Below are positions 2,873 through 47,704 of a stretch of DNA of 64,000 nucleotides, in pieces. This stretch comes from Candidatus Omnitrophota bacterium (GTDB lineage Bacteria > Ratteibacteria > UBA8468 > B48-G9 > DTJG01). The DNA lies in contig JAMWBU010000006.1 in NCBI GenBank assembly GCA_023819255.1, positions 2,902-66,901 of the forward strand. The letters run 5' to 3'. Within the stretch, counting starts at the first letter, position 1; each line of letters opens with the position of its first letter. A program made the translations under genes and the position numbers. The notes beneath the pieces were generated by a model. It was given only the letters and a program-made list of their open reading frames with translations, was not told the origin of the DNA and did not search any database.

Positions 2873-2895
2873 ACTTATTGTAAATAGGTCCTACT

Positions 2896-6439: not shown

Positions 6440-6442
6440 CCT

Positions 6443-9075: not shown

Positions 9076-9082
9076 AAATGAT

Positions 9083-22946: not shown

Positions 22947-25541
22947 ATGAAACTAAAAAAGACTGCAATACTTACAGTGCTGTTGGCTTTCTATTGTTTT
23001 GCTGGTGTTAATATGAGTGGCAGGGTTTCTGACATTCAAAACGGTCAGGGAATTGCTGGTGCAACAGTATCCATCGTCGGAACAGGATTTTCTTCCACTA
23101 CTGACAGTCAGGGGAATTTTACAATATCAAATGTTCCGGCTTATTCCACTGGATTTCAGTTTAAAGCAAGCAAAACCGGTTATGTCGACACATACACTCA
23201 GCTTGGGAATTCAGGAGAAATGGATGCGAATGATATTACTTTTCCCCTGATTTCAAACACACTGTACGGCAATTTGCACAATCAATTATATGGTGGCATT
23301 GCCCATACAAGCGGTAAAGCGGATATTTTTGGTAGGGTTGGTAATGAGTACACTGGAGTGTCCGGGGTTGTTATAACTGCCAGATATATCGACAACAACG
23401 CAAATGCTGGAACTATTAGATATGTCAACGCAAGCAATATGCCTGATGGTTCATTAACATCAACATCTTCAAATGGAGTTTTCATTGCCTATAATGTGGA
23501 TCCTTACAGACCAATAAAGATAACAGGAACAAAAGCCGCAAGTTATTTTTCTTCCTGTGTTGCAATTTGTTATCCTGACAAAGTCACTGTCGGCGGAATT
23601 GAGCAGGTCGACAGTTTACTTCAACTTTCAGGAAAGGTTGGTTGGGATGAAAACCCTGTTTCAGGAGTGACAGTTTCAATCCCTGGCACTTTGAGTTCAA
23701 CGACAACCGGAACTGATGGTTCATTCAATATATCTTTTAATCCTGTAAACTACGGCGTACTCAAATTTTCAAAGTCAAACTATGTTGACACATATTTTTC
23801 AGAAAGAATAGACGAAGATGAAGGAAACAGGAAACAGGGCGATGATGAAGAAGAGAATGAATTTTTCATTATTCCTCAAACTGATTATACAGGGTTGTTG
23901 AATCAGCTTGGAAGGTCGCACATTAATGGTAAAGGAGATATTGTAATAGAGCTTGAAACAATCAATGAAATGAATGTGGCTGGAGCAAAAATAACCCTTT
24001 ATGATAAAAATGGCACAAAGCTCAATCCAGATATCTTATATTTTGATGAAGAAGGTATGCCTGCAACTGGTTTAAATGAAACCACCAGCGAAAGTCAGTG
24101 TCTGATTTTAAATCTTGACCCTGGATATTATTTTATTGCTGCGGAGAAATCAGGTTGTGAATTTTCAAGAAATACAGTTTTTGTTTTTGCCAATGGCATA
24201 ACCAGCGCTCCAAGAATAATTGGACTCCCTCCGATACCTGAAATTATCAAAGCAAAAGCAGAGGACATTCCTTCCGCAAATATCAGCAAGAGCGCTCAAA
24301 ATGTGCCAATGCTTGCTTTTATGTTCCATCTTAACAAGTGGGAAACAGATGAAAGCGTGATTTTTGACAGCATTATTGTAACAGCGAAAGGTACGGGAAA
24401 TATCTCGACAGCGCTTTCAAGCGCAAAGCTTTATCTTGACGCAGACAACAATGGCACCTATGAAACAGAGGTGTCGACAGGAACAATTTCAGGAAATAAA
24501 ATCACATTTAAAAATATCAATAAAGAGATGGATATAGGCTTGAATCAGAGATATCAGGTTGTTTTCAATTTCAATGGAACAGCCTCTATCGGGCAGACCT
24601 TTGGAGTTGATATTCTTAAAAACGCTGATGTTTACAGCCATACAAAAAATACAGGCATTTCAGTAACCTGTGATGGCTGGACGGTTGAAGGAAATCTGAT
24701 GACGATTGCCCAGGTTTATCCACCCTCAAAACCCAGCAATTTTTCACCCGCAAATGGAGCAACACAAGTTAATCCTCTATCATATGTATTGCAGTCGAGT
24801 CCGTTTAACCCGGGTCAGGGCAGCAATGTTCACAGTTCTTCGCAATGGATGATGTGGAAGGATGGAGAAACAGAGGAAACCTTTACCTGGGATAGTGGAA
24901 CAAACACAATAAATCTCACATCTGTTTCAACACCTGTCTTGTTAGAGGGTTCCACAAAATACTGGTGGAAGGTACGGCATCAAAATGGAGATAATATCTG
25001 GAGTGATTGGTCAGATGCGACATACTTTACGACAGCGCAGGGTGGAATTACACCTGCAGGCAAACCGAGCAATCAATCGCCCGAAGATGGGCAAACAGAT
25101 GTTCCATTGCCGGTAGTGTTAACAGGGAGCCAGTTTTCACCGGGTAACTCTGTAGTTCATGCTGCTTCTCAGTGGCAAATTTACCTCGACACCAAGAATG
25201 TAAATCCTGTTTTTGATTCAAAAAGGGATGGAAATAATCTCACCTCAATTACAGTTTCAGGACTTTCATACAATACTCAATATCTGTGGAGAGTCAGGTA
25301 TCAGGATGGAAACGGCGCGTGGAGCCAGTGGAGCGAGTTTACCAGTTTTGAAACAAAAGAGGGTATGAAGGGCGATTTAAATCACGATGCCGAGGTTGAC
25401 ATAAGAGATGTAATACTTTGTTTAAGGATGGCAATTGATCTTGATCCTGTTGATCCTGGTCTTGCAGATATGAATGAAGATGGACAGGTTGATATTTTAG
25501 ATGTCATTTTAATTCTGCGAAAAGCAATTGACCTGGATTAA
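22947..25541 (+). CDS. secreted multidomain protein: signal peptide, CarboxypepD_reg-like beta-sandwiches, two tandem FN3-like repeats, C-terminal type-I dockerin
   Basis: MKLKKTAILTVLLAFYCFA signal peptide. GRVSDIQNGQGIAGATVSIVGTG is CarboxypepD_reg-like. Two FN3-like repeats (...YWWKVRHQNGDNIWSDWSDATYFTT and ...YLWRVRYQDGNGAWSQWSEFTSFET). C-terminal dockerin duplicated segments GDLNHDAEVDIRDVILCLRMAIDLD and DMNEDGQVDILDVILILRKAIDLD. Confidence 0.6.
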   Translation: MKLKKTAILTVLLAFYCFAGVNMSGRVSDIQNGQGIAGATVSIVGTGFSSTTDSQGNFTISNVPAYSTGFQFKASKTGYVDTYTQLGNSGEMDANDITFPLISNTLYGNLHNQLYGGIAHTSGKADIFGRVGNEYTGVSGVVITARYIDNNANAGTIRYVNASNMPDGSLTSTSSNGVFIAYNVDPYRPIKITGTKAASYFSSCVAICYPDKVTVGGIEQVDSLLQLSGKVGWDENPVSGVTVSIPGTLSSTTTGTDGSFNISFNPVNYGVLKFSKSNYVDTYFSERIDEDEGNRKQGDDEEENEFFIIPQTDYTGLLNQLGRSHINGKGDIVIELETINEMNVAGAKITLYDKNGTKLNPDILYFDEEGMPATGLNETTSESQCLILNLDPGYYFIAAEKSGCEFSRNTVFVFANGITSAPRIIGLPPIPEIIKAKAEDIPSANISKSAQNVPMLAFMFHLNKWETDESVIFDSIIVTAKGTGNISTALSSAKLYLDADNNGTYETEVSTGTISGNKITFKNINKEMDIGLNQRYQVVFNFNGTASIGQTFGVDILKNADVYSHTKNTGISVTCDGWTVEGNLMTIAQVYPPSKPSNFSPANGATQVNPLSYVLQSSPFNPGQGSNVHSSSQWMMWKDGETEETFTWDSGTNTINLTSVSTPVLLEGSTKYWWKVRHQNGDNIWSDWSDATYFTTAQGGITPAGKPSNQSPEDGQTDVPLPVVLTGSQFSPGNSVVHAASQWQIYLDTKNVNPVFDSKRDGNNLTSITVSGLSYNTQYLWRVRYQDGNGAWSQWSEFTSFETKEGMKGDLNHDAEVDIRDVILCLRMAIDLDPVDPGLADMNEDGQVDILDVILILRKAIDLD

Positions 25542-26706: not shown

Positions 26707-26913
26707 TTAACGATTTCTCAGTTTAACCTTGAAGTCATTTCTACCGTGTCTTACAACTTCCACATGTCCTTCTCTTGCCAGCCATCCAAGGCTCATCAGA
26801 GAGAGATCCTTTGGCCTATCAATATCCTTGACCATTTTCAAAAATGATACCTCTCCATGTTTATCCAGATAATTCCATATGTCTCCTGCCGCAAAACCAA
26901 TGTCTGTAATCAT
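26707..26913 (-). CDS. small winged-helix (wHTH) domain protein
   Basis: 68 aa. Pattern consistent with a wHTH DNA-binding fold. Last gene of the TonB operon, ATGA-overlapped. Confidence 0.35.
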   Translation of the reverse strand: MITDIGFAAGDIWNYLDKHGEVSFLKMVKDIDRPKDLSLMSLGWLAREGHVEVVRHGRNDFKVKLRNR

Positions 26914-27182
26914 TTTGCCTCCTTGTTATCATCTTTTCCGCAAAGATTATACCCTGATTCTCCTTTTTTGTGAAGACTTCCGCAAAGGGGACATCTTGAT
27001 ATTTGATTCCCGGAACTATCAATATAGAGGTGAAAACATAACGGACACTCCCATAAATAGTTTTCTTTTCTTAAAGAGAAATTGCTTTTTTTCTTTGCTT
27101 CTTTATAAATCCATAAAAAAAGAATCAGAAGGGCTAAAAAAAGATAACCAGTAACCGCAAAAGTAAGTTCTATTTTTATCAT
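26910..27182 (-). CDS. small membrane-anchored zinc-ribbon protein (CPLC...CPLC)
   Basis: N-terminal TM helix followed by ECPLCFH...RCPLCGS. ATGA overlap on both sides. Confidence 0.35.
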   Translation of the reverse strand: MIKIELTFAVTGYLFLALLILFLWIYKEAKKKSNFSLRKENYLWECPLCFHLYIDSSGNQISRCPLCGSLHKKGESGYNLCGKDDNKEAK

Positions 27183-27886
27183 TTAAGCCTGAATTTTAGC
27201 GTTACAATTGCCCAGACATTTATATCTTTATCAATTTTTGCAAATCGCCATTTTTTAATGGCTTCTTCTGCGATAATGTCAAGTTTTCTATATCCGCTTG
27301 TTTCAACAATGTCAGTCGCTGACACAAAACCGTCTTTGTTTACCCATATCTTGATCCGCACATTTGATTCAATGCTTTGTTGTTCTGCCCAGAAAGGATA
27401 TTCAGGGATCGTTTTTGATATAACAGGTCTTGTTCCTCCAGGTCCGGATATTTCAAATTCTTCTCCCTCCACTTTAATATTTGGCAGGGTTTCCATTTCC
27501 GGCCGGCCTTCAGTTGTTTGCGGGGTGGTTTCGGTTATTCTCGGCACAGGCAATTCCCAGTTGACATTATCCAGTTTTTCAGCAGTTAGCAGCGGAGTTT
27601 TCTGGATGCCGATAGAAATTTCTTTTTCGATTCTTCCGACCTTTTGCATCGATATGTCTATCTTTTGTTTTTCAATTATCCTTGTTGAGGGTAGATCTGG
27701 CGAAGCTTTTGTTAAATAAGCGTTCGAGATATTTGTTTTTGCTTCCTGATACAAATACACCAGATAATATGGCGGTTTTTCAACTTTTGCAGGAAGTACT
27801 AAACTCAAAACCGGCAGTATCAGAATATGTGCACCAAGACAGACTAAAAATATTCTTAAAAGGTTTCTATTGCTGGATTCCATCAT
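27179..27886 (-). CDS. tonB: TonB-family energy transducer
   Basis: N-terminal TM anchor, Pro/Glu-rich linker and a C-terminal TonB_C-like domain. Follows exbD. Confidence 0.65.
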   Translation of the reverse strand: MMESSNRNLLRIFLVCLGAHILILPVLSLVLPAKVEKPPYYLVYLYQEAKTNISNAYLTKASPDLPSTRIIEKQKIDISMQKVGRIEKEISIGIQKTPLLTAEKLDNVNWELPVPRITETTPQTTEGRPEMETLPNIKVEGEEFEISGPGGTRPVISKTIPEYPFWAEQQSIESNVRIKIWVNKDGFVSATDIVETSGYRKLDIIAEEAIKKWRFAKIDKDINVWAIVTLKFRLK

Positions 27887-28293
27887 TGTTCGGAAACAGG
27901 CATTGTTGCGATCGCAATCTTTGATATGCCGGCGACTCTTGCAATGTCCATCACGCTAACAATTTTTCCATGCGGTGTTTTCACATCGCCCTTTATAATA
28001 ATAATGATATTTTTTGATGTTTCATTAAATTTTCTCAAAAACTGCTCGAGTTGTTGAGGGGAAACCTGTTTTTCTCCCAGAAATATGATGCCTTCAGCTG
28101 AAACGCTGATGAAAACTTCATTTTTCTCAATGCTGTCGGTTGAAATAGCAGTTGGTAGATTTATTTTTATGCCAGGTTGCATTATGAAGCTTGATGTCAG
28201 CATAAAGTAAACCAGCAACTGAAGAATCACATCAATCAGTGGTGCCATATTTGTCTGACCTTTGAAGATTTCATACCTTTTTGGAAATCTCAT
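27883..28293 (-). CDS. exbD: biopolymer transport protein ExbD/TolR
   Basis: 136 aa, single TM. Pattern FISVSAEGIIFLGEKQVSP...IIIKGDVKTPHGKIVSVMDI. Confidence 0.85.
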   Translation of the reverse strand: MRFPKRYEIFKGQTNMAPLIDVILQLLVYFMLTSSFIMQPGIKINLPTAISTDSIEKNEVFISVSAEGIIFLGEKQVSPQQLEQFLRKFNETSKNIIIIIKGDVKTPHGKIVSVMDIARVAGISKIAIATMPVSEQ

Positions 28294-28925
28294 TTTATTT
28301 CCTCTTCTTCGGACCTCAAAAAGAGCAGAATGTCCATCATTCGGGATGTTGCCCGTTCCATGTCGTTGATCAAGCCATTAACCCGTGAAACAAGATAATT
28401 ATATCCAAGATAAGCCGGGATACTTACCACAAGTCCTGCGACAGTTGTGATCAGTGCTTCCCATATGCCACGCGCCAAATCTGTTGGATTTACAAGACCT
28501 GATTTTGCTTCTATCACCATAAACGCCTTAATCAATCCTGTAACAGTGCCCAGCAGTCCAAGCAGGGGAGCGACGGTTGCAATTGTTGCAAGGACTCCAA
28601 GATATTTTTCAAGATACGGGATAATCTGGTTAGCTTCATCCTGAATATTTTCTTTTATGACTTCAGGAGGCTTGTCAGATTTTACCAGGGCTCTGTAGAC
28701 CAATCTTGCAACCGGTCCTGGAGTATTTTCACAAAGTTCAAGTGTCTCCCTTATTTTTCTCTTTTTCATTTTTTCTTCCACACTGCCGATAAACTTCTCA
28801 GTGTCCACTTCGGATTTTCTCAGCGCGATAAGTCGTTCAATAATTACCGCCAGTGTCAGAGCGCCGCAGATAATAATCGGGATCATCAGCCATCCACCAC
28901 GAATGACAAATTGCCATAAACTCAT
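28290..28925 (-). CDS. exbB: MotA/TolQ/ExbB proton-channel protein
   Basis: 211 aa, three TM helices. LGLLGTVTGLIKAF motif. Confidence 0.85.
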   Translation of the reverse strand: MSLWQFVIRGGWLMIPIIICGALTLAVIIERLIALRKSEVDTEKFIGSVEEKMKKRKIRETLELCENTPGPVARLVYRALVKSDKPPEVIKENIQDEANQIIPYLEKYLGVLATIATVAPLLGLLGTVTGLIKAFMVIEAKSGLVNPTDLARGIWEALITTVAGLVVSIPAYLGYNYLVSRVNGLINDMERATSRMMDILLFLRSEEEEIK

Positions 28926-28952
28926 AATATACCCCCGTGTATTTTTACTAAT

Positions 28953-30383
28953 TTACCATCTTGCCTGAAAACCCGCAATGAAATCAAATGGTCTGCCTGG
29001 ATAACCAGGCGCTATTTCGTAGTCATTGCCCAGAATATTGTTAAATCTGAAAAACAGTTTCAGATCAGGTGTAACATTGTATGAAATTGCTGTTGAAAAA
29101 ATGGTGTATCCTTTCACTTTTTCACTGTCAAAAATCTGGTTTCCCTCATATATTAATTGAAAATCAGAACTTAACTTTCCTTCAACAAACCCTGCTTTGA
29201 AATAACTGGTGCTTTCAGGAAATCCGGATTTTTTTTTGTTCTGATTAAAGCGGAAGTGACCTGATTCAATATAGAATTTTTCAAATTTCTTTGATAGTGT
29301 AAAACCTGTCATATTTGTAAAATTGTCTTTAAGAACCGAAGGTTCATAAAGGTTATCATTATCTATGTCAAGCCAATGATAGCCCAGTTTTTCATATGAG
29401 ATCTGGCCTTCTATTGAGAAATCAACGCCTGTTATTTTTCCATAAAATCCAGCATAAATGGAATAAATTTCTTCAGGAGGAAGGAAAACATTCTTCATAT
29501 CAAGATGGGGCTGTTCTCCAGCAATCTTCCATAAATCAGGGAAAGAGAAAGTGCTCGAAAACCCTGCTTGAAATTTTGTTCCATCTTTCTCAACCTGAAA
29601 ATTTGCAGAAGGTAAAACCCTGATCTCATCTCCAATATTTTTTATCGTGATTGCTACAGCAAGGTTTTCATTACGATACTGGCCTGATAAATCGACGATT
29701 CTATTCTTTTCATCAGCAAATTCGTTAAATCCCAATTCCGCGTTAAAATCAAATTTTCCAATTTTATTGTTCAAAATAAAAAACACGCCTGTTTGTTCAA
29801 GCTCTCCAAGCGAATTTTTTGTTCCAGCAAATGTGATTCTGTAATCCTGCTGTTTCAAAATTAGTTTTGTGTCAGTTGTTACAGTGTGCTTCTTTTTATA
29901 AGTCAAAAAACCACCTGGAGGAGAAACTTCTTTTATACAGTTCCAGAGATCAAAAGCAAAATCTATATTTTCAGCAAAAGATTTTTGAATATGGGCTTCA
30001 ATGATATTTTTGCCATCGCGGCGTCTGTAGGAGTTGTCATGCAATGCAGAAAGATTCAGGTGCCACCCCGGATAATTTAATAAAATGTCAGATGATATGT
30101 ATCCGAATTTGCCTGCGCATACGGTCAATTCCTTGAAATTTTTGGTGCCAACATCTGCAACTTTTTCATTCTTTGTCGAAGTGGGTTTTTTTAGATATTG
30201 TTCGGGAATTCCGGGGGTATGCGGGAAATTAATCTGAAACTGGTGTGGGTAGAAGAAAACAGGTGTTTTATAAATGTTTCTATCGCTTCCAGTCACAACA
30301 GTTTCAGGGATTTCAATGTTCTGTCCATATATCAGACTTGATGAGATCAAAAAAAACACTGCAAATGTAAAAAGGCATTTCAT
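28953..30383 (-). CDS. outer-membrane beta-barrel protein with N-terminal TonB-box-like motif
   Basis: Signal peptide, ETVVTGSDRNIY right after the cleavage site, alternating amphipathic strands, C-terminal FQARW aromatic end. Only 476 aa, so shorter than classical TonB-dependent transporters. Confidence 0.5.
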   Translation of the reverse strand: MKCLFTFAVFFLISSSLIYGQNIEIPETVVTGSDRNIYKTPVFFYPHQFQINFPHTPGIPEQYLKKPTSTKNEKVADVGTKNFKELTVCAGKFGYISSDILLNYPGWHLNLSALHDNSYRRRDGKNIIEAHIQKSFAENIDFAFDLWNCIKEVSPPGGFLTYKKKHTVTTDTKLILKQQDYRITFAGTKNSLGELEQTGVFFILNNKIGKFDFNAELGFNEFADEKNRIVDLSGQYRNENLAVAITIKNIGDEIRVLPSANFQVEKDGTKFQAGFSSTFSFPDLWKIAGEQPHLDMKNVFLPPEEIYSIYAGFYGKITGVDFSIEGQISYEKLGYHWLDIDNDNLYEPSVLKDNFTNMTGFTLSKKFEKFYIESGHFRFNQNKKKSGFPESTSYFKAGFVEGKLSSDFQLIYEGNQIFDSEKVKGYTIFSTAISYNVTPDLKLFFRFNNILGNDYEIAPGYPGRPFDFIAGFQARW

Positions 30384-32026
30384 CTGGTTTTATAAGTTGA
30401 TAAATCCTGTTTTGCTTTTTGTGCCCAAACAGTTTTCGGAAAAGCGGCGAGGAGTTTCACATAATATGTTTGCGCATCTTTTATTCTGGATTTTTCTATG
30501 TTGATTTTGACAAGTATGTAAAGAGCCTCAGCGGCGAAGATGCTTTTTCTATCTATGTTTTTCAATATTTTTTCGCTTTCGTCAATGTTTCCAGTAAGAT
30601 AAAGAATTTTTGCATTCAAAAACAAAAGATCCGAATTCCTGCTGGATTCCATTTTTTTAAGGTAACTATTAGCAACATCTATTCCGTCTGTATTCAGGAT
30701 CTCATTGATAAAAATTATTCCTTCTGTCAGAATGAAGTTGTCTTCAGGGTAGATTTCCAGCATCTTGGTAAAAAATTTTTTCATTTTTTCTCTGTCACCC
30801 GAATCCTTGTAAAAGCCGTAAATTGCTTTGAGCACCTGAACAGGCAGAGGATAATCAGGATTCTGGTTGGCTAAAAATTCCCATATATTTATAGCCTGCT
30901 GTATTTTATCGCTATTATAAAAAGCCAGACCGAGTGTGTACATCACATCCGGGTCACTTGTATTTTTCAGATATTCGGAAAAAATCTCTATGGCATTTTC
31001 ATATTGTTTCTGGTTGAAATAGATATACCCAATCTGCAATTTTGTTTTTAGAAGCATTTCCTGGTTTGTTGCGGATTGCAGTATTTTTTCATACCAGCCA
31101 ATTGCCTGGTCTTTTCTGTCTTCCAATTCAGAAATTTTGCCAAGTTCCCAGAATGAACGAATAAGAATTTCATTATTCTTTGTGGTTTTTATAATGGCTG
31201 TGAGCAGGCTCTTTGCTTCTTTATACTTATTATTTCTTTTGTATATGAGCGCTTTTTGCAATTTTGCCCATTCCGCCTGTGGAGAACCAGAAAATTTTGA
31301 TATTACACTGTTATAATACCTTTCACTTTCAGAATAGTTTTTCATATTGAAAAAGCAATCCCCGATTTTCAAAAGTATTTCCGGCTCAATTTTTTGATTC
31401 CTGAAGTAAGTTAGGGAGTTCAGAAAATTCTCGACCCCTTCGGCAAAATTGTTTTCCTGATAAAGTATCAGCCCTCGGTAATATTCTATTTCATGGTTAA
31501 TACCCGGTTCAGAAAATACCTTTTCCATTTCATCAAGAATTTTTTTTGCCGCAGAGATGTCGCCAGATGCAATTTTTTGACCTGCTTCGTTAAGAAGCAT
31601 ATATCCCATATTTTTTTCAATTTCAGGTTCTCTGCCATAAACCGGCAATCCTTCTTTATATGTTTTCAATGCTTCATAGAGCATGTTTAAAAACATTTTG
31701 AGCGTTAATGTATACTTCCAGACATCATGATTGTATCTGGAATCCGGAAAAATCTTTGTGAATTCCTCAAACTTTTCAAGCGATTTATCGTATTTTTTTA
31801 ATTTGAGAAGGTTTATTCCGTAAAGAAAAAGAGCGTATTGATTCTTTTTAATTTCTGTTTTTTCAAAGTATTTATCAAGGAATTCCAGAGATATTTCATA
31901 AAACCCTTCATTGAAAGCAATAACAGCGCAAGTGAAGGGATCATCCTGATCTGCATTTTCTTGAGGGTATGCATTAAGTGAAAAGATAACAACTGATATT
32001 ATTAAAAGAAGTCCTTTTAGTTTCAC
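30380..32026 (-). CDS. secreted TPR-repeat protein
   Basis: Signal peptide plus many 34-aa TPR-like repeats. GTG start. First gene of the TPR-OMP-exbBD-tonB operon. Confidence 0.7.
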   Translation of the reverse strand: MKLKGLLLIISVVIFSLNAYPQENADQDDPFTCAVIAFNEGFYEISLEFLDKYFEKTEIKKNQYALFLYGINLLKLKKYDKSLEKFEEFTKIFPDSRYNHDVWKYTLTLKMFLNMLYEALKTYKEGLPVYGREPEIEKNMGYMLLNEAGQKIASGDISAAKKILDEMEKVFSEPGINHEIEYYRGLILYQENNFAEGVENFLNSLTYFRNQKIEPEILLKIGDCFFNMKNYSESERYYNSVISKFSGSPQAEWAKLQKALIYKRNNKYKEAKSLLTAIIKTTKNNEILIRSFWELGKISELEDRKDQAIGWYEKILQSATNQEMLLKTKLQIGYIYFNQKQYENAIEIFSEYLKNTSDPDVMYTLGLAFYNSDKIQQAINIWEFLANQNPDYPLPVQVLKAIYGFYKDSGDREKMKKFFTKMLEIYPEDNFILTEGIIFINEILNTDGIDVANSYLKKMESSRNSDLLFLNAKILYLTGNIDESEKILKNIDRKSIFAAEALYILVKINIEKSRIKDAQTYYVKLLAAFPKTVWAQKAKQDLSTYKTR

Positions 32027-32030
32027 TGAT

Positions 32031-32063
32031 GTAAGGGAAAAGGGGGGCGTGGTGCGCCCCCCT
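32031..32063 (-). terminator. intrinsic terminator downstream of csp
   Basis: AGGGGGGCG-TGGTG-CGCCCCCCT perfect 9-bp GC stem followed on the minus strand by a TTTTCCC T-run. Confidence 0.65.
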
Positions 32064-32077
32064 GGGTGATTGTCGGC

Positions 32078-32284
32078 TTACAGTTTTACCACGTTTGTGG
32101 CCTGGAGCCCTTTCTTACCCTGAACTACTTCAAATTCAACGGTTGCGCCTTCTTCAAGCGTCTTGTATCCATCTCCCACGATCGCCGTGTAGTGGACAAA
32201 GACATCCTCACCGTTTTCTCGTTCAACAAAGCCATATCCTTTAGCATTGTTGAACCACTTCACCTTCCCTTTCTCCTTCGCCAT
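32078..32284 (-). CDS. cspA: cold-shock protein (CspA family)
   Basis: [19 protein letters not shown]1 motif and [11 protein letters not shown]2 motif. Confidence 0.9.
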
Positions 32285-32551
32285 GCTTTCCTCCTTTTAT
32301 CCACGCAAATTCTTTAGCCGTTATTCGGCTGTGCGTGGATTTTATCTGAACTGGTAATAATAAATCTGATTTGTACACAATTATTGCCTATCGGGTTGAA
32401 CTTGAGGATTTGCCCTGCGGATGCAAATCTAAACTCATTGTACAGCCGGCTAATCCAATTAAAAAAGTTAACACTGCCAATAGCAAAATCTTCTTCATTT
32501 ATCCTCCGACAGGAGATAGTTTAACACTAAAAAAAATTATGTCAAGTTCTG

Positions 32552-32710
32552 TCATCCCTTGAGAGCAAGGTATTTATCCGGTTCTTTTTCAAACTTTGAC
32601 TTACACCGAGGGGAACAAAAATAAAATATCTTTCCGTCTTTTTCAAAACTATTTTTTGTTGGCTGCTTCAACCAGGTTCTACAAACAACATCTTTAATGT
32701 TTTTTTTCAT
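32552..32710 (-). CDS. 52-aa YHS/TRASH-like metal-binding zinc-ribbon protein
   Basis: MKKNIKDVVCRTW...KDGKIFYFCSPRCKSKFEKEPDKY. The C..(x)..FYFCS..C spacing is typical of YHS domains. Below the ORF-track cutoff. Confidence 0.4.
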   Translation of the reverse strand: MKKNIKDVVCRTWLKQPTKNSFEKDGKIFYFCSPRCKSKFEKEPDKYLALKG

Positions 32711-35590: not shown

Positions 35591-36355
35591 TTATTCTCCT
35601 GATTTTATAATGTGAAAACCCTGGTCGGTTCTCACTACTTTTTCAAGTACCTGGTCGGGCTTCATTGAAAAAAGAATTTCCTCCAGTTCAGGCATCAATT
35701 GGCCCCGTGAAATCATTCCAAGGTCTCCGCCTTTGTCCTTTGAAGAACTTATTGATTCTTTTTTTGCTATTTCGGAAAAATCCGCTCCGTTTGAAAGCCT
35801 GCTGATAATGTCTCTTGCCTGTTGTTCTGTAGGCACGACTATTTCATAAAGATGAATTCGTTCCGGCACAAGAAAATCTTTAAGATTGTTGTTGTAGTAG
35901 TTTTTTATTTCCTCAGGGGAAATTTGCGCTTTGTTCAATACCTGGTCTGAAAGAAATTCTTTTATCAATAGATCTTTCCTGTAGTTCTCAATCGCTTTCT
36001 TAATATTTTTTCTATAATGCCTTTGGTATTTTTTTGCCTGTTGCGTCAAAAGTTTTTCTCCTATGAAATCTTCAAGAGCCTGCTGGGGAAATTGTTTTAC
36101 ATATTCCTGATAAAATTCGGGATATGTTGAGATTTTTTCTTTTAAGTCCGCCAGCGTAATAATATGGCCATTGACGACCGCAACGGCATTTTTTTTCAGA
36201 TATTGTCTATATGCAGAATATACTGCGATCACAATTATCACCGGTATTCCCAGCATAAGTATGAATTTTTTTCTTTTTTTCCTATCCTTGAAATAACTTC
36301 CTATTCTTACACACAACGTCCTGCACTGATTCTTGACTTTCTCTTTTATTTTCAC
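35591..36355 (-). CDS. parvulin-type peptidyl-prolyl cis-trans isomerase (PpiC/PrsA-like)
   Basis: C-terminal rotamase motif SIS...GGDLGMISRGQLMPELE...GFHIIK. Confidence 0.6.
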   Translation of the reverse strand: MKIKEKVKNQCRTLCVRIGSYFKDRKKRKKFILMLGIPVIIVIAVYSAYRQYLKKNAVAVVNGHIITLADLKEKISTYPEFYQEYVKQFPQQALEDFIGEKLLTQQAKKYQRHYRKNIKKAIENYRKDLLIKEFLSDQVLNKAQISPEEIKNYYNNNLKDFLVPERIHLYEIVVPTEQQARDIISRLSNGADFSEIAKKESISSSKDKGGDLGMISRGQLMPELEEILFSMKPDQVLEKVVRTDQGFHIIKSGE

Positions 36356-38664
36356 AATCGTCTCCTTTCTATAATCTTATTTTTATGGCGGTCATAGATT
36401 ATCCTGTATCTCGTTTCTGCTTTTATTTCTTTGCCTTCTATTATACCATCGTTATTACTATCCTGCACTTTCTGGGATACAACAAGAATCCTGAATACAT
36501 TTGCCCTTACTGTGATAAGATTGATAATTTTAGAAATGACAAGCTCTTTTTCATCTTCTGTGTCAATCCAGCGATTTTCATTATCGTCGAGAGAATTTCT
36601 GCCATACCTGGTAATTACCTGTTTCAGCAATGAGCCGGGTTTACCCACAATATCGGATATATCCCTGAATGGTCTTTCATTTATTATTTGTCTTGCAATG
36701 TCTGTATCCACAAGAGGCAGGCATTGGAGAACAAAGGGTGATGCTGTATTTATATTAATCCTGCCATATACAGGTTTTTCAACTTCCTCTGCGACAGTGA
36801 ACACATCAAGCAATTTTTTATCTTCGCCTTTCCACATATTCAGTGTTTTCCACTGAGTTCCTTTATGAATAAAAGAAAGCTCGGCTGGATTTGAAAACGG
36901 ATTGTTTTTTATTATGAAGGAGGCAGGCCACTGAAAGACCTGAAAGGTCTCAAATTCACCTCCGGAACAGGGGTTGAAACTGAGATTAAATTTTCCTGGA
37001 GTTTCAGGCAGCGAAAACCACTGGTTAACCCTGGGATCGTTTTTCTGTCTTGATAGTTTACCGGGTTTTTCTTTTCCATAATCTAGCTGTTCTATCAAAT
37101 TGCCATTCTGGTTCAATAAATACATATTCCCACTGAATGCGAAATCTATTCCGAAAACTCTGGCAATAATAGAAAACATTTCTTTAAGTATCGGAAAATC
37201 AAAATTCATAAAAAGAATGGGTTCAAACTGGTCGGCATTTGACGGACTTTTTACTGGTATCAGAAATGGAATTACAACTGGTCCGGCTGGAGTAATTTTG
37301 ATAAAAATTTTCCATTTTATGGAGTCTCCGATCAGATAATATGAACGTGGGTTCAATTTTGTGCCATCTGGAATCCTTATTGAATTGAGAGTAAGGGACT
37401 CCCAGAAATTTTTCATATGCTGCATGTCCGGTGTTTTTTCATTGTCGATTTCATCAAGGGTGTCTTCAGATTTTTTGTTAAAATCGTTTATGTCAATTTT
37501 GGGCAGCAGTACCATTCCACCTTTTATAAGCCAGCCACCTATGTCAATTGTTTCATCGTATGGATTAAAAATTTCTATAAAATGCGGTCCAAGTTCTTCA
37601 ATTATCGTAACAGAGCCAATTGTTTTTATGCTTAGCTCAGGAGCTGGTTTTACTTCATTGATATATGGTGTTTTTTCCAGACCGATGAATTGTTCACCTT
37701 CTGCGGTTTTTACAACAGTGGGAATGCTGTCTTTATCGCGATAATCAACTGCGTTTACGGCTATCTGAATGGCTTGGTTCTGTTTATAACCGAGTGATAT
37801 CAAAATTGACGCAATTTGAGAAGCGCTTGCTTTATTTATGTTTGTTCTTAAATAATTTTCCGAATCAATGTTTAAATCATAGCTGTGGCAGGTGATAGAA
37901 TTTTTGATTTTTTTGAAAAAATCCTCCTTCATTCCATAGACCATTTTTATGTCTTCAATCGTAAAAAAAGGTCTGTCATCACCACGTGGTTTATTATGAT
38001 TGAACTCATCTTCTTCATCGATTCCTTCATCTTGTTCATCAATGGTGCCATCGCCATCATTGTCAATCCCATCATTTGAGATAGTTTGGTTATCATTATC
38101 ATCGTCCTGATTTGCTTTACCGGGTTTCAAATTTTCGCCTCTTCTGAATTGCACAATATGTCTGTGAAATTTCGGGAAAAGGCCAATTTCAAAACTTGTC
38201 CAGCCTTCATTGAATGAATGCTGGTTGTTTTTTGAAAGATTTCCTGCGTAATTCAGGTTTAAAGATCCTGATTCGTCTGCCACAAGCACCGCGTATCTTC
38301 CGACAATTTTATTTTTGAAGTTTCTAACATAAAAGAACCTGCTTTCGCAGATGCCGTCTCCATCAATATCCACATCGTCGCCGGCAAATTTCTGGTGCCA
38401 CTGCTGGTCGTATCCGTCGTAATTATCTGTGTCGTTTTTAATTTCCCATATTGCCTGTTCTATTCCTATCTTTGCGGCATGGTCGGAAAAAACCGTTGAA
38501 AACATAAGAAACGAGGATTTTTCCCACTGGCCGAATATGAGTAGAAGTCCCATTGTTATGACAAATAAAAGCAGTATTATCCCGATAGCAAAAATTAACG
38601 CGTCTCCTTTATCTGTCCATCCAGATTTCTTCTTCAAATGCCTTTTCAATATCTTTTCCCTCAA
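36352..38664 (-). CDS. giant GspK/PilX-like minor pseudopilin (770 aa) with acidic Ca-binding-like insert and C-terminal HhH motif
   Basis: Non-ATG (TTG) start. N-terminal KGDALIFAIGIILLL is a prepilin-like hydrophobic helix lacking Glu5. DNDGDGTIDEQDEGIDEEDE acidic loop. ININTASPFVLQCLPLVDTDIARQIINERPF helix-hairpin-helix as in GspK. Confidence 0.5.
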   Translation of the reverse strand: MREKILKRHLKKKSGWTDKGDALIFAIGIILLLFVITMGLLLIFGQWEKSSFLMFSTVFSDHAAKIGIEQAIWEIKNDTDNYDGYDQQWHQKFAGDDVDIDGDGICESRFFYVRNFKNKIVGRYAVLVADESGSLNLNYAGNLSKNNQHSFNEGWTSFEIGLFPKFHRHIVQFRRGENLKPGKANQDDDNDNQTISNDGIDNDGDGTIDEQDEGIDEEDEFNHNKPRGDDRPFFTIEDIKMVYGMKEDFFKKIKNSITCHSYDLNIDSENYLRTNINKASASQIASILISLGYKQNQAIQIAVNAVDYRDKDSIPTVVKTAEGEQFIGLEKTPYINEVKPAPELSIKTIGSVTIIEELGPHFIEIFNPYDETIDIGGWLIKGGMVLLPKIDINDFNKKSEDTLDEIDNEKTPDMQHMKNFWESLTLNSIRIPDGTKLNPRSYYLIGDSIKWKIFIKITPAGPVVIPFLIPVKSPSNADQFEPILFMNFDFPILKEMFSIIARVFGIDFAFSGNMYLLNQNGNLIEQLDYGKEKPGKLSRQKNDPRVNQWFSLPETPGKFNLSFNPCSGGEFETFQVFQWPASFIIKNNPFSNPAELSFIHKGTQWKTLNMWKGEDKKLLDVFTVAEEVEKPVYGRININTASPFVLQCLPLVDTDIARQIINERPFRDISDIVGKPGSLLKQVITRYGRNSLDDNENRWIDTEDEKELVISKIINLITVRANVFRILVVSQKVQDSNNDGIIEGKEIKAETRYRIIYDRHKNKIIERRRL

Positions 38665-39283
38665 ATTTTCTTGTTTTCAAAACAAAAAATACTTTAATCT
38701 TGTCCGGCAATTTAGCACGACCAATTTGATTTTGCGTATTCCAGGATTTTTCCCATGTGTTCCCATCCCAATATAAAAATGAAAACGTTTTTACATTTTC
38801 AACCAGTGGTTGGCTGCCAGAAAACCCGGAATCAAAAGCATAGGTTTTCATTTTTCTGTCAAGCCTTTCAAACGATAATTTTATCTCATCGCCATCAAAA
38901 TATATTCCATACTTTCCAATATCTGAACCACTACCAGGCGCGTAAGGTGCAACATATTTTATTGCTGTTTCTGTTCCAATGAAGTCAATTCTAAAAGGCC
39001 CTTCAATATCCTGAATTATTGCTTCCTTCAGTGAGCGTCTTAAGAAAAAAGTAAAATCTCTTGCCGAAGCTATCATTGTTTTTTCTGCTGCTTGTTTTGT
39101 TGCTCTAAGGGTAATACTGGAAAAAATCATAACTCCTGAAATAAAAACAACAACCATAACAACCATTGTAATGAGGATTTCAACAAGGGAAAAAGCCCTT
39201 TTATCTTTGATGCAGGGCTGTAACAAAATCCTGGGTATACTTTTTCCCTTCGTAAGTTTTTGTAAGTTTAATATGAACCTCAT
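38609..39283 (-). CDS. prepilin-type N-terminal domain protein (GspJ/PilW-like), long leader
   Basis: Strong SD (AAGGAG, spacing 7) before the ATG at 39283. KRAFSLVEIL prepilin motif lies 29 aa in. The track ORF extends to 39448. Start uncertain, with a TTG alternative at 39226. Confidence 0.45.
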   Translation of the reverse strand: MRFILNLQKLTKGKSIPRILLQPCIKDKRAFSLVEILITMVVMVVVFISGVMIFSSITLRATKQAAEKTMIASARDFTFFLRRSLKEAIIQDIEGPFRIDFIGTETAIKYVAPYAPGSGSDIGKYGIYFDGDEIKLSFERLDRKMKTYAFDSGFSGSQPLVENVKTFSFLYWDGNTWEKSWNTQNQIGRAKLPDKIKVFFVLKTRKFEGKDIEKAFEEEIWMDR

Positions 39284-39563
39284 AGAGGTGCTCCTTAATC
39301 TGCTTAAAAGATATATCATAATATAAATTTGAAAATCCAGGCATCTTGCCCTTGATATTTTCAGGAACAGCGATGCCATAATGGCTAAATTCTTCCTGTA
39401 TTTTATCACTAAGAATTTCGGCTGCGATTGCAAAATCCTGAAAATCACTGGCTCTTCTGTAAAGTTTTTCTGTGTTCTGCACGACCATCAAGACGCATGA
39501 GATGCCAAGAATGATAATAATTGTTGCCACAAGGACAGAAATTAAGGAAAATCCTCTATTCAT
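39201..39563 (-). CDS. small pseudopilin (GspI/PilV-like, Ser at +5)
   Basis: MNRGFSLISVLVATIIIIL. 120 aa. Confidence 0.5.
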   Translation of the reverse strand: MNRGFSLISVLVATIIIILGISCVLMVVQNTEKLYRRASDFQDFAIAAEILSDKIQEEFSHYGIAVPENIKGKMPGFSNLYYDISFKQIKEHLYEVHIKLTKTYEGKKYTQDFVTALHQR

Positions 39564-40008
39564 TCTTTTCTATTTTTGTCTTACCGGTGAGATTGTAGAG
39601 AACAATCTTTGCTGTTTTTTTGCTTGATGTGTCCTGAAGAACTAAATAACCTGCCTGCCTTGCAGTGCCCTGCGGTAAAAATTCAGCAGGTGAAAAACCG
39701 TCGGTTTTTTCTTTAATGATGATAAACTGCGGAAGTTTAATTACTTTTCCAACCAGTGTTCCATCAATCCTGTAGATTCCATATGAGTTGTTTCCAAAGA
39801 AAACACGAAAGTTTTGTTTTTCCGCTATTGCGTAGTATCTTGCAGTTTGAAGGGTTTCACAGATGCTTTTGCATGCATTATCAAGGTTGATTCTACTAAT
39901 TGCTTTGTGAGGGAAAAAAACAGAAAAACCAATGAGCAAGCCAATAATCACAACAACAACAAGAATTTCAATAAGGGTGATTCCTTTTTTACCAGTTTCC
40001 GATGTCAT
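39556..40008 (-). CDS. prepilin-type pseudopilin (GspH/FimT-like)
   Basis: MTSETGKKG|ITLIEILVVVVIIGLL, canonical E5. The track ORF extends to 40140 and would overlap the upstream gene by 152 nt. Confidence 0.5.
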   Translation of the reverse strand: MTSETGKKGITLIEILVVVVIIGLLIGFSVFFPHKAISRINLDNACKSICETLQTARYYAIAEKQNFRVFFGNNSYGIYRIDGTLVGKVIKLPQFIIIKEKTDGFSPAEFLPQGTARQAGYLVLQDTSSKKTAKIVLYNLTGKTKIEKNE

Positions 40009-40426: not shown

Positions 40427-40529
40427 TTTTTCTTTTCTTTTTTCTGCCCAAAATCCTGTCTGTTCCCTTTATAAAAGGAGTAAATGCGAGGAAAATTAAA
40501 AACTGTAGGACATTTTTTTGCGTTCATCC

Positions 40530-43934: not shown

Positions 43935-43935
43935 T

Positions 43936-45911: not shown

Positions 45912-45978
45912 CTTTTTTTGTCCCTTTTCTCTATTATAATACCCTGCAATTTCTGTTCAGTAAAGCCCGCATTTTTTA

Positions 45979-47703: not shown

Positions 47704-47704
47704 A

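What the first reader, a model, noticed from the sequence alone, without database searches (positions are those of the whole stretch)
26707..32026. TPR - short OMP with TonB box - ExbB - ExbD - TonB - Zn-ribbon - wHTH operon
Seven genes are tightly overlapped (ATGA/ATG-TGA junctions) on the minus strand. The 476-aa OMP begins, after its signal peptide, with ETVVTGSDRNIY, a TonB-box-like motif. It ends with an aromatic residue but is about 200 aa shorter than classical 22-strand TonB-dependent transporters. A membrane-anchored CPLC/CPLC zinc ribbon and a small wHTH protein close the operon. This could be a compact TonB-energised uptake or Tol-like envelope system with its own regulator. It does not match the canonical tol-pal or fec/fep layouts.
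Basis: partly seen in the sequence, partly recalled or inferred. Interest (0 to 1): 0.55.

Follow-up and report, generated by a model that had tools for sequence, protein, structure and literature searches.

The report
Plug-less TonB barrel operon in Omnitrophota
Seven overlapping genes in an uncultured Omnitrophota bacterium encode a proton-driven Ton/Tol-type motor wired to its own outer-membrane barrel that has the fold of a nutrient transporter but lacks the usual plug; this looks like an undescribed variant of the machines that carry energy to the bacterial outer membrane.

Summary
Seven minus-strand genes (26707-32026) are joined by five 4-nt overlaps and one 27-nt spacer. They encode a TPR protein, a 476-aa outer-membrane protein (OMP), ExbB, ExbD, a TonB-type protein, a membrane-anchored zinc ribbon and a DUF2582 winged helix.

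AlphaFold (pLDDT 83.5) and Foldseek show the OMP is a full 22-strand barrel of the TonB-dependent-transporter fold (BtuB is the best match). It has no plug. About 37 conserved residues carrying a TonB-box-like strand (IPETVVTG) hang on a variable charged tether instead.

The gene set recurs in about 19 loci, down to about 20% OMP identity and with different flanks. TPR, short barrel, ExbB, ExbD and TonB also recur in a second Omnitrophota clade and in one much more divergent lineage.

At least 568 species genomes, nearly all Omnitrophota, carry the wHTH. Most of the sampled loci have TPR-ExbB-ExbD-(degenerate TonB)-Zn-wHTH without the barrel, directly upstream of a type IV pilus operon.

The best reading is a dedicated Ton/Tol-type envelope-coupling machine, not a substrate-specific importer. 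I rate it a new variant of a known kind. Its function is untested.

The parts
30380..32026 (-). Periplasmic TPR protein (548 aa, GTG start, signal peptide, no lipobox). Its stop overlaps the OMP start by 4 nt.
   Evidence: TPR_2/TPR_6 about 1e-24; YfiO/BamD-like; TIGR02795 YbgF-type TPR 107.7 bits spread over 4 stretches. A homologous TPR gene precedes the barrel or the motor in nearly all related loci.
28953..30383 (-). Outer-membrane protein (476 aa): signal peptide, conserved N-terminal segment, linker, plug-less 22-strand TBDT-fold barrel.
   Evidence: AF2 models (pLDDT 70; pLDDT 83.5, barrel blocks mostly above 90). Foldseek against PDB: the top 50 hits are all TonB-dependent transporters, BtuB best at E 6e-15, TMq 0.60-0.64. 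Profile against PDB: last strands of BtuB, E 0.002. No Plug hit in 30 of 30 family members.
30213..30323 (-). Conserved mature N-terminus (aa 21-57) with the TonB-box-like strand IEIPETVVTG (aa 23-32, nt 30288-30317).
   Evidence: Alignments A1, A2 and A5. Conservation 0.59-0.66 against a barrel mean of 0.39. The same motif ([IL]ELP[ED]xVIxGxD) occurs in more distant short barrels. AF2 leaves it unstructured (pLDDT below 40).
30138..30212 (-). Variable K/E-rich linker (aa 58-82) between the N-terminal motif and strand 1.
   Evidence: Least conserved segment (0.28). Its length varies by tens of residues among homologues. It is disordered in both models.
28956..30137 (-). 22-strand beta-barrel (aa 83-476). 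All periplasmic turns are 2-3 aa. The extracellular loops L2, L3, L7, L8, L9 and L11 are better conserved than the strands.
   Evidence: DSSP strings of both models, my topology parse, and per-loop conservation.
29340..29381 (-). Loop L8 motif YxWxDxDxDNLYEP (aa 335-348), nearly invariant across the family and resembling a DxDxD calcium-binding site.
   Evidence: 0.66 identity over 30 sequences. It is also kept in the second Omnitrophota clade. The calcium-site reading is inference only.
28290..28925 (-). ExbB/TolQ-family proton-channel subunit (211 aa).
   Evidence: Pfam MotA_ExbB 1.4e-32. NCBIfam TolQ 100 bits and ExbB 73 bits, both below their cut-offs. PDB: TolQ 4.5e-13, ExbB 1.4e-10.
27883..28293 (-). 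ExbD/TolR-family subunit (136 aa) with the transmembrane Asp (PLIDV).
   Evidence: Pfam ExbD 1.8e-29. PDB: ExbD 1.3e-12, TolR 6e-11. PLIDV aligns with PFIDV of solved ExbD.
27179..27886 (-). TonB-type protein (235 aa): N-terminal TM helix with His20, a linker of about 110 aa that is not proline-rich, and a C-terminal TonB_C domain (aa 161-235, nt 27182-27406) with a YP motif.
   Evidence: Pfam TonB_C 3.5e-10. PDB hits are only TonB C-terminal domains, including those solved in complex with FoxA and BtuB. Sequence.
26910..27182 (-). Membrane-anchored zinc ribbon (90 aa): about 6 residues outside, one TM helix, then a basic stretch and a cytoplasmic CPxC...CPxC ribbon.
   Evidence: Sequence. The alignment of 9 orthologues has invariant W24, E28, C46-P-x-C49, Y53, D55-S56, I61-S62 and C64-P-x-C67. 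It was uncalled but present in L007 and L012. Topology follows the positive-inside rule (inference).
26707..26913 (-). DUF2582 winged-helix protein (68 aa), the most conserved component of the module.
   Evidence: Pfam 2.2e-11. 49-91% identity across loci, with invariant SLGWLxREGH. Relatives occur in at least 568 species genomes.
32041..32063 (-). Terminator-like hairpin (9-bp stem, 8 G-C pairs, T-rich tail) between the cold-shock gene and the TPR start. It probably marks the 5' boundary of the operon.
32078..32284 (-). Cold-shock protein gene, a conserved upstream neighbour in barrel-containing loci. It is probably a separate transcript.
   Evidence: It is separated from TPR by the hairpin.

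Best explanation
The seven genes form one operon that encodes a self-contained Ton/Tol-type machine spanning the cell envelope.

Shown by sequence and structure prediction:
- ExbB and ExbD are intact members of the proton-driven 5:2 motor family, and the ExbD transmembrane Asp is present.
- The third protein has a TonB/TolA-type membrane anchor (His20) and a TonB-type C-terminal domain.
- The outer-membrane protein is a complete 22-strand barrel of the TonB-dependent-transporter fold without any plug.
- In front of the barrel, about 37 conserved residues carrying a TonB-box-like strand (IPETVVTG) hang on a variable, charged tether of about 25 residues here (longer in some homologues).
- The TPR protein is exported and translationally coupled to the barrel.
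- The zinc ribbon and the winged-helix protein are cytoplasmic and very strongly conserved.

Inferred:
- The TonB-type domain captures the N-terminal strand of the barrel by beta-strand augmentation. The motor therefore pulls on the barrel or its tether rather than unfolding a plug.
- The TPR protein scaffolds the barrel in the periplasm.
- The zinc ribbon and winged helix couple or regulate the motor from the cytoplasmic side.
- I think the machine serves an envelope-housekeeping or surface-organelle-support role, by linking and energising the outer membrane. That would resemble Tol-Pal or PocAB-TonB3, not import of one particular nutrient.
For: Operon structure and overlaps. Domains. Motor residues and TonB C-terminal-domain matches to solved structures. 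Barrel fold, 22 strands and no plug. N-terminal motif conservation with a variable linker.

Co-conservation of TPR-OMP-ExbB-ExbD-TonB-Zn-wHTH at about 20% OMP identity with different flanks. In further genomes. The core TPR-barrel-ExbB-ExbD-TonB in a second Omnitrophota clade (L094) and in a much more divergent lineage (L095).

Link between the TonB domain and the barrel: every barrel-containing locus examined has a Pfam TonB_C call. Seven of ten barrel-less loci tested have lost it.

Against a nutrient regulon: no ABC importer, binding protein or substrate-related enzyme sits next to the module in any locus. The neighbours are housekeeping or envelope genes such as SurA, KsgA, PdxA, UvrA and CSD. 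The module is present in at least 568 species genomes. In L095 a SPOR-domain protein lies between the barrel and ExbB. In 40 of 58 loci with enough downstream sequence the module runs into pilin-like, PilM/N and PilO genes. In L092 these continue into a secretin and PilB, and secretin homologues occur in 37 loci. Precedent for Ton-like motors serving type IV pili: PMC5285504.
Against: The 45-residue N-terminal peptide finds no transporter in the PDB by sequence, so the TonB-box call rests on motif, position and conservation.

Most sampled Omnitrophota modules lack the barrel (35 of 50 loci with full upstream coverage), so the motor must have another target there. The correlation between TonB_C and the barrel is only partial: 3 of 10 barrel-less loci keep a weak or partial TonB_C.

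An unplugged 22-strand barrel should leak, and how the lumen is closed is unknown. The conserved loops are only a guess. Much of the synteny could reflect shared ancestry within one phylum. Whether these genomes also carry TolB/Pal or other TonB-dependent transporters was not determined. Function is entirely untested.
Confidence: 0.5

Rival explanations
1. A minimal TonB-dependent nutrient importer. The plug-less barrel is a gated or size-selective uptake channel for small solutes, energised by its own ExbB-ExbD-TonB set. The N-terminal tether or the conserved loops act as the gate, and the Zn ribbon and wHTH regulate expression.
For: The barrel belongs to the transporter fold and is weakly homologous to BtuB. 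The TonB-box-like motif sits at the same place as in transporters. Extracellular loops are more conserved than strands, and a DxDxD motif recalls the calcium-ordered ligand loops of BtuB (the BtuB comparison is from my own knowledge). TBDT-like barrels with small or absent plugs are reported to be functional importers in Bacteroides (bioRxiv 10.1101/2025.11.13.688124). NCBI annotates the protein as 'TonB-dependent receptor'.
Against: No inner-membrane importer, binding protein or catabolic gene is linked in any of about 20 loci. The module is single, core and syntenic with housekeeping genes, unlike the variable, multi-copy pattern of nutrient receptors. The always-adjacent TPR protein, the SPOR protein in L095 and the pilus operon in most relatives have no role in this model. 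The Zn-ribbon protein has almost no periplasmic part, so it cannot sense the receptor the way FecR does.
Confidence: 0.25
2. An accessory of the type IV pilus / type II secretion-like machine, in the manner of PocAB-TonB3. The motor places, assembles or energises the pilus apparatus. In the window's clade the barrel plus TPR is an added outer-membrane partner, possibly even an alternative conduit.
For: In 40 of 58 loci the wHTH is followed within a few bases by pilin-like, PilM/N and PilO genes. In L092 these run on into a secretin and PilB, and secretin homologues occur in 37 loci. In L009 TPR-OMP is followed by three pilin-like genes. In L094 a response-regulator/PilZ protein replaces the Zn ribbon. 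The window has a PilB-PilT-PilB-PilC-pilin cluster 4 kb upstream on the same strand, but no PilM/N/O or secretin in 64 kb. Precedent: PMC5285504.
Against: In the window's own clade the module is not adjacent to pilus assembly genes; peroxiredoxin follows it. SurA, PdxA, KsgA and CSD separate it from the upstream pilus genes. L076 has both the barrel and PilM/N, so the barrel is not simply a replacement for the PilM/N assembly genes. Adjacency within one phylum may be inherited synteny. No physical link is shown.
Confidence: 0.15
3. A gliding or adhesion transducer of the Agl-Glt type. A TolQR-like motor, TonB-domain proteins, TPR scaffolds and outer-membrane barrels with TonB-box tails move or expose a surface adhesin.
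For: The parts lists are similar: motor, TonB C-terminal domain, cytoplasmic zinc ribbon (part of GltJ in Myxococcus), periplasmic TPR proteins, and barrels with unstructured N-termini and a putative TonB box (PMC9946355, PMC11761067).
Against: The Glt barrels are small (20-27 kDa), not 22-strand transporter-type. No MglA, AglZ or CglB-like genes, FHA or GYF domains are in the operon. No sequence relationship to Glt proteins was tested or found. Omnitrophota are very small cells with no reported gliding (my own knowledge).
Confidence: 0.05
4. The genes are neighbours by descent only and do not work together.
For: All but one locus (L095) come from Omnitrophota and closely allied candidate groups, so the synteny is not fully independent.
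Against: There are five 4-nt overlaps. The core is retained at about 20% OMP identity while the flanks change. It recurs in a much more divergent lineage. TonB_C loss goes with barrel absence.
Confidence: 0.03

Closest known systems
TonB-dependent transporters with the ExbB-ExbD-TonB system (for example E. coli BtuB)
   Same: 22-strand barrel fold (BtuB is the best Foldseek match). Weak sequence homology over the last strands. An acidic-T-V-V-T-type strand about 6 residues into the mature protein, as in BtuB DTLVVTA (own knowledge). ExbB, ExbD and a TonB_C protein are encoded alongside.
   Different: There is no plug domain: 62 residues precede strand 1, about 25 of them a variable linker, and there are 0 of 30 Plug hits. 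Loops are very short and the barrel is only about 394 aa. A dedicated motor sits in the same operon. TPR, Zn-ribbon and wHTH partners are obligatory. No linked inner-membrane importer is present. The TonB linker is not proline-rich.
Lidless, plug-reduced or plug-less 'Type S' TBDT-like glycan transporters of Bacteroides (bioRxiv 10.1101/2025.11.13.688124)
   Same: Barrels of the transporter superfamily that escape the Pfam Plug and barrel models and have a small or absent plug.
   Different: Those sit in CAZyme/PUL-type clusters and import sugars. This one sits with its own motor, TPR, Zn ribbon and wHTH and has no catabolic genes nearby.
Tol-Pal system with CpoB (YbgF)
   Same: A TolQ/TolR-like motor, with TolQ as the best solved-structure and NCBIfam match for the ExbB-like protein. 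The anchor protein has a His-containing TM helix. A periplasmic TPR protein matches the YbgF TPR model. The locus is core, single-copy and in an envelope-gene neighbourhood. In L095 a septal-PG-binding SPOR protein lies inside the cluster. TolA captures the N-terminus of TolB by strand augmentation, as proposed here (own knowledge).
   Different: No TolB and no Pal are in the operon, and none turned up among the window ORFs that were scanned. The C-terminal domain is TonB-type, not TolA domain III. The outer-membrane partner is an integral 22-strand barrel. The TPR protein is twice the size of CpoB and is all TPR. Two extra cytoplasmic components are present.
Myxococcus Agl-Glt gliding machine and its Nfs relative
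   Same: A TolQR-type motor, TonB-CTD proteins, a cytoplasmic zinc ribbon, periplasmic TPR scaffolds, and OM barrels with disordered N-termini and a putative TonB box.
   Different: The barrels are of a different kind and size. The zinc ribbon is a separate small protein here. There are no FHA/GYF domains or MglA/AglZ/CglB partners. Homology was not tested.
PocAB-TonB3 of Pseudomonas aeruginosa
   Same: An ExbB/ExbD/TonB paralogue set whose role is correct placement of type IV pili and the flagellum, not nutrient uptake (PMC5285504). In most Omnitrophota the module abuts a type IV pilus operon.
   Different: Poc has no dedicated barrel, TPR, Zn ribbon or wHTH (own knowledge). In the window's clade the pilus assembly genes are not adjacent.

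Membership tests
TonB-dependent transporter (TBDT) | 22-strand outer-membrane beta-barrel of the TBDT fold | tested here: met
   Two AF2 models give 22 transmembrane strands with all short turns on the periplasmic side. The top 50 Foldseek PDB hits are all TBDTs.
TonB-dependent transporter (TBDT) | Sequence membership in Pfam PF00593 (barrel) | tested here: inconclusive
   27.8 bits against a cut-off of 27, covering only residues 316-450. Only 4 of 30 family members hit at all.
TonB-dependent transporter (TBDT) | N-terminal globular plug domain (Pfam PF07715) filling the barrel | tested here: not met
   No Plug hit in 30 of 30 members. Only 62 mature residues precede strand 1, and they are disordered in both models.
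TonB-dependent transporter (TBDT) | TonB box near the mature N-terminus | tested here: inconclusive
   A conserved IPETVVTG motif lies at mature residues 5-12. There is no significant sequence hit to the N-termini of solved TBDTs, and binding could not be modelled.
TonB-dependent transporter (TBDT) | TonB- and pmf-dependent import of a substrate | not testable with these tools
   Needs experiments.
Ton system (ExbB-ExbD-TonB) | ExbB with a MotA_ExbB channel domain, and ExbD with a transmembrane Asp | tested here: met
   (PLIDV aligns with PFIDV).
Ton system (ExbB-ExbD-TonB) | TonB with an N-terminal TM helix containing His and a C-terminal TonB_C domain with a YP motif | tested here: met
Ton system (ExbB-ExbD-TonB) | Proline-rich (EP/KP) rigid spacer in TonB | tested here: not met
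   The linker of about 110 aa has scattered prolines only (sequence).
Ton system (ExbB-ExbD-TonB) | Scores above the NCBIfam equivalog cut-offs for ExbB, ExbD or TonB | tested here: not met
   All are far below: 72.6 against 206, 64.5 against 216, 29 against 377. Only the TonB C-terminal domain model passes.
Tol-Pal system | TolQ-TolR-TolA inner-membrane complex | tested here: inconclusive
   The TolQ and TolR models score best or nearly best but below their cut-offs. The TolA full-length model gives E 0.096, and the C-terminal domain is TonB-type.
Tol-Pal system | TolB beta-propeller and Pal lipoprotein encoded with the motor | tested here: not met
   Absent from the operon, from the window ORFs that were scanned, and from all related loci. 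The rest of the genome was not examined.
Tol-Pal system | CpoB/YbgF: about 260 aa, with a coiled coil and one TPR domain | tested here: inconclusive
   TIGR02795 gives 107.7 bits against a cut-off of 90.1, but summed over 4 repeated stretches of a 548-aa all-TPR protein. The full-length CpoB model gives 35.9 against 383.
Agl-Glt / Nfs machines | Small GltA/B/H-type barrels, GltG/J with FHA or ZnR-GYF domains, MglA/AglZ coupling | not tested
   Only the literature was compared. No FHA or GYF domains were seen.
PocAB-TonB3-like pilus-associated Ton paralogues | ExbB/ExbD/TonB paralogues functionally tied to type IV pili | tested here: inconclusive
   Gene adjacency to pilin-like, PilM/N and PilO genes in 40 of 58 related loci, continuing to a secretin and PilB in L092. 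This adjacency is absent in the window's clade. The functional link is untested.

The most novel reading that the evidence does not exclude
TPR protein, plug-less 22-strand TBDT-fold barrel with a tethered TonB box, and ExbB-ExbD-TonB together form a third, so far undescribed branch of Ton/Tol-type envelope machines. It would be ancient enough to be shared by Omnitrophota and a lineage related to Bacteroidota. In it the motor pulls on the barrel itself, with no plug to unfold. In Omnitrophota the machine has acquired two cytoplasmic subunits (zinc ribbon and winged helix) and is built into the type IV pilus gene cluster. It would supply force or positioning to a surface organelle used for host attachment. 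The barrel-less majority form would be a derived state in which the TonB domain has decayed.
Probability: 0.2. Interest if true: 0.8.

Novelty: new variant of a known kind. Interest (0 to 1): 0.6.

Why it matters
[quoted passage not shown] A conserved family that keeps the 22-strand barrel and a TonB-box-like strand but has no plug, and that always travels with its own motor and a TPR partner, asks what TonB-type force is used for when there is nothing to unplug.

The module is present in at least 568 species genomes, nearly all Omnitrophota. This phylum consists of very small, often host-dependent bacteria whose envelope biology is almost unknown. The adjacency to type IV pilus genes offers a genomic handle on the unexplained link between Ton-like motors and pili, known from PocAB-TonB3.

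The two cytoplasmic partners (zinc ribbon and DUF2582 winged helix) are uncharacterised and could be new regulators of 5:2 motors.

Tried and rejected
Dead ends:
- Genome scans seeded with the OMP alignments (A2, A3) and the Zn-ribbon alignment (A6) failed for lack of a conserved stretch. The wHTH alignment worked.
- The word-indexed protein search with the wide alignment returned only one distant member.
- The 45-residue N-terminal peptide gave no transporter hits in the PDB.
- Literature searches gave nothing useful on Omnitrophota and Tol-Pal, on DUF2582, or on natural plug-less TBDTs apart from one Bacteroides preprint.

Readings rejected:
- An ordinary 8-16-strand porin. The models give 22 strands and all fold hits are TBDTs.
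- A compact plug inside a smaller barrel. There is no room and no Plug signal.
- Canonical tol-pal. There is no TolB or Pal, and the C-terminal domain is TonB-type.
- A FecA/FecR/FecI-type signalling cascade. There is no sigma factor, and the Zn-ribbon protein has only about 6 periplasmic residues.
- A mobile island. Composition is uniform, the neighbours are housekeeping genes, and the module is phylum-wide.
- CSD as the first gene of the operon. A strong hairpin separates it from TPR.

Full report
OBSERVATION. The window is a core chromosomal stretch of a Candidatus Omnitrophica MAG. The OMP is 100% identical to an NCBI protein from that phylum, annotated 'TonB-dependent receptor'. Seven minus-strand ORFs occupy exactly 26707-32026. 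Five junctions are 4-nt overlaps. The OMP-to-ExbB junction is a 27-nt spacer with a GGGGG ribosome-binding site. A strong terminator-like hairpin (32041-32063) separates the upstream cold-shock gene from the TPR start, so the operon most likely begins at TPR. Composition is uniform across the region.

THE OUTER-MEMBRANE PROTEIN. The Pfam barrel model matches only the C-terminal third, at the threshold (27.8 against 27 bits), and there is no Plug hit. Two AlphaFold runs were made. The first used 10 close homologues (pLDDT 70). The second used 30 sequences reaching 16-20% identity (pLDDT 83.5, pTM 0.75, barrel blocks mostly above 90). Both give the same picture: a signal peptide, residues 19-80 without confident structure, then 22 transmembrane strands from residue 83 to the C-terminal Trp. 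Reading the DSSP string, every periplasmic turn is 2-3 residues and every long loop falls on the extracellular side. This is the expected topology for a 22-strand barrel with both ends in the periplasm. Foldseek against the PDB returns only TonB-dependent transporters among the top 50, with BtuB best (E 6e-15, TMq 0.60-0.64 although 17% of the query is disordered). A family profile also finds the last strands of BtuB by sequence (E 0.002). None of the 30 family members matches Plug. The protein is therefore short because it has no plug and minimal loops, not because it has fewer strands.

THE N-TERMINUS. After the predicted cleavage site (LIYG/QN) the mature protein begins QNIEIPETVVTGSDRNIYKTP. 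From my own knowledge, mature BtuB begins QDTSPDTLVVTANR, with the TonB box at residues 6-12. The position and the acidic-T-hydrophobic-V-T pattern correspond. Across the 30-sequence alignment, IEIPETVVTG is the second most conserved 10-mer of the whole protein (0.66 against a barrel mean of 0.39). The following residues 58-82 are the least conserved segment (0.28) and vary in length. More distant short barrels of 500-550 aa carry the same motif: IILPEAVIRGED, IELPEVMIKGKD, IELPDFVITG, IELPEFVITG. This fits a recognition strand on a flexible tether. It is not proof.

THE OTHER SIX PROTEINS.
- The ExbB-like protein matches solved TolQ (4.5e-13) slightly better than ExbB (1.4e-10).
- The ExbD-like protein matches ExbD (1.3e-12) slightly better than TolR (6e-11), and its transmembrane Asp aligns (PLIDV/PFIDV).
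- The third protein has a TM helix with His20 and a C-terminal domain that matches only TonB C-terminal domains, including those crystallised on FoxA and BtuB. The YP motif aligns. Its linker is not proline-rich.
- All NCBIfam equivalog scores are far below their cut-offs, so the set is neither a canonical Ton nor a canonical Tol system.
- The TPR protein is exported and consists of TPR throughout, with BamD/YbgF-type units.
- The 90-aa protein has about 6 external residues, one TM helix, a basic stretch and a CPxC...CPxC ribbon, which should therefore be cytoplasmic.
- Both the 90-aa protein and the 68-aa DUF2582 winged helix are more conserved across clades than the barrel.

CO-CONSERVATION. 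Close homologues (40-59% OMP identity) show the same seven genes, but also the same flanks. An exhaustive profile search found about 20 further full-length family members at about 20% identity. For five of them (L007, L008, L010, L011, L012) the context is CSD-TPR-OMP-ExbB-ExbD-TonB-Zn ribbon(-wHTH) with otherwise different neighbours. The Zn-ribbon gene was uncalled in two loci but is present. One locus (L009) keeps the overlapping TPR-OMP pair but is followed by pilin-like genes instead of the motor. A second Omnitrophota clade (L094) has TPR (769 aa, 4-nt overlap), a 507-aa barrel that matches the whole Pfam barrel model, ExbB, ExbD, TonB, a response-regulator/PilZ protein and DUF2582. A far more divergent barrel (L095) sits in TPR (992 aa), barrel, a SPOR-domain protein, ExbB, ExbD and TonB. 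Its 34%-identical relatives carry Bacteroidota labels.

THE WIDER MODULE. A scan of one genome per species with the wHTH alignment found at least 568 genomes, nearly all labelled Omnitrophota. I annotated the 80 best loci with HMMs built from the verified components. Of 50 loci with full upstream coverage, 5 have the barrel form, 35 have TPR (about 830 aa)-ExbB-ExbD-(TonB-like)-(Zn)-wHTH without a barrel, and 6 have TPR directly followed by wHTH. The barrel is thus a clade-restricted component of a phylum-wide module. In barrel-less loci the third gene keeps the His-containing anchor, but in 7 of 10 tested it has no detectable TonB_C domain, and in 3 only a weak or partial one. Every barrel-containing locus examined has a Pfam TonB_C call, faint only in the precomputed record for L095. 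This correlated decay is the best indirect evidence that the TonB domain and the barrel work together. Because the much more divergent lineage also has the barrel form, loss of the barrel seems more likely than gain. That is inference.

LINK TO TYPE IV PILI. In 40 of 58 loci with at least 3 kb downstream, the wHTH is followed by a pilin-like gene (8 nt away in L092), a PilM/N fusion and PilO. In L092 these continue with a 150-aa ORF, a secretin with an STN domain, and PilB. Secretin homologues occur in 37 loci. The window's clade differs. Peroxiredoxin follows the wHTH. A PilB-PilT-PilB-PilC-pilin/T2SS-J/K-like cluster lies 4 kb upstream on the same strand, behind SurA, a SurA-like gene, PdxA, KsgA, a YHS gene and CSD. 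No PilM/N/O or secretin homologue is detectable anywhere in the 64 kb. P. aeruginosa PocAB-TonB3 shows that ExbB/ExbD/TonB paralogues can serve pilus placement rather than uptake (PMC5285504).

MECHANISM. What is shown: an intact 5:2-type motor, a TonB-type connector, a plug-less TBDT-fold barrel with a conserved tethered strand, an exported TPR partner, two cytoplasmic partners, and their co-inheritance. What is inferred: strand augmentation between the TonB domain and the tether, with force applied to the barrel or its tether.

I favour an envelope-coupling or organelle-support role over nutrient import for four reasons. No importer or catabolic gene is ever linked. The locus is single, core and phylum-wide. 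The obligatory partners (TPR, SPOR in the outgroup, pilus genes in most relatives) belong to envelope architecture. The Zn-ribbon protein cannot sense the periplasm.

The uptake reading remains reasonable (0.25). The extracellular loops are more conserved than the strands, including a near-invariant YxWxDxDxDNLYEP motif that resembles a calcium site. Plug-reduced TBDT-like importers have also just been reported in Bacteroides. How an unplugged 22-strand lumen is kept closed is unexplained under any reading.

COMPARISON AND NOVELTY. The system shares its barrel and motor with Ton. It shares its general logic (TolQR-like motor, TPR partner, housekeeping context) with Tol-Pal/CpoB. Its parts list (TonB domain, zinc ribbon, TPR scaffolds, barrels with TonB-box tails) resembles Agl-Glt. 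Its pilus association resembles PocAB-TonB3. It fails a defining feature of each: no plug, no TolB or Pal, a different kind of barrel, and extra components. Public annotation calls the barrel either 'TonB-dependent receptor' or 'hypothetical protein'. I found no paper describing the module. I rate it a new variant of a known kind, with interest 0.6.

Noticed in passing
L024-L093, e.g. L092:2556-13687: In most sampled Omnitrophota the order is TPR (about 830 aa)-ExbB-ExbD-degenerate TonB-like-Zn ribbon-wHTH-pilin-like-PilM/N fusion-PilO, continuing in L092 with a 150-aa ORF, a secretin (STN domain) and PilB. A Ton-like motor module is thus embedded at the head of a type IV pilus operon.
   Followed up: partly
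window 36352-50568 (-): A type IV pilus / T2SS-like cluster (PilB, PilT, a second PilB, PilC, several N-methyl pilins, a 579-aa PilX_N protein, T2SS-J-like and a 770-aa T2SS-K-like protein). No PilM/N/O or secretin homologue is detectable anywhere in the 64-kb window.
   Followed up: partly
window 29340-29381 (OMP aa 335-348): The motif YxWxDxDxDNLYEP in predicted extracellular loop L8 is nearly invariant across the whole barrel family and looks like a DxDxD calcium-binding site. In general the extracellular loops are more conserved than the strands, which is unusual for an outer-membrane protein.
   Followed up: partly
L023, L026, L029, L042, L048, L075, L079, L082: In these loci the TPR gene is followed directly by the wHTH gene with no motor genes in between, mostly still followed by pilin-like/PilMN/PilO. 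TPR and wHTH may be the most persistent pair of the module.
   Followed up: no
L094:11396-12226: In a second Omnitrophota clade a response-regulator/PilZ protein occupies the position of the Zn-ribbon gene, between TonB and DUF2582. This hints that this slot holds a cytoplasmic regulator of the motor, possibly responsive to c-di-GMP.
   Followed up: no
L095:9591-11567: In the much more divergent lineage a 658-aa SPOR-domain protein (SPOR domains bind septal peptidoglycan) sits between the short barrel and ExbB, with M23 peptidase genes nearby on the other strand.
   Followed up: no
window 22947-25541 (+): An 864-aa secreted protein with two CarboxypepD_reg domains, Ig-like domains and a C-terminal dockerin. 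It is a conserved downstream neighbour in the close relatives (L001, L003).
   Followed up: no
window 32388-32498 (-) and 32552-32710 (-): Two small ORFs lie between KsgA and CSD: a 52-aa YHS-type ORF, conserved in nearly all barrel-type loci, and a 36-aa ORF with a lipoprotein signal (LAGC).
   Followed up: no
window 1-11325 (+): A polysaccharide biosynthesis cluster: DegT aminotransferase, a flippase, seven glycosyltransferases and one 520-aa protein with no Pfam match. An asparagine synthase follows.
   Followed up: no
L014, L015, L019, L024 and similar (record titles): Several genomes carrying this Omnitrophota-type module are labelled Vermiphilus, TA06, Ratteibacteria or Planctomycetia in their records. 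This probably reflects mis-binning or outdated taxonomy and not true spread of the module.
   Followed up: no
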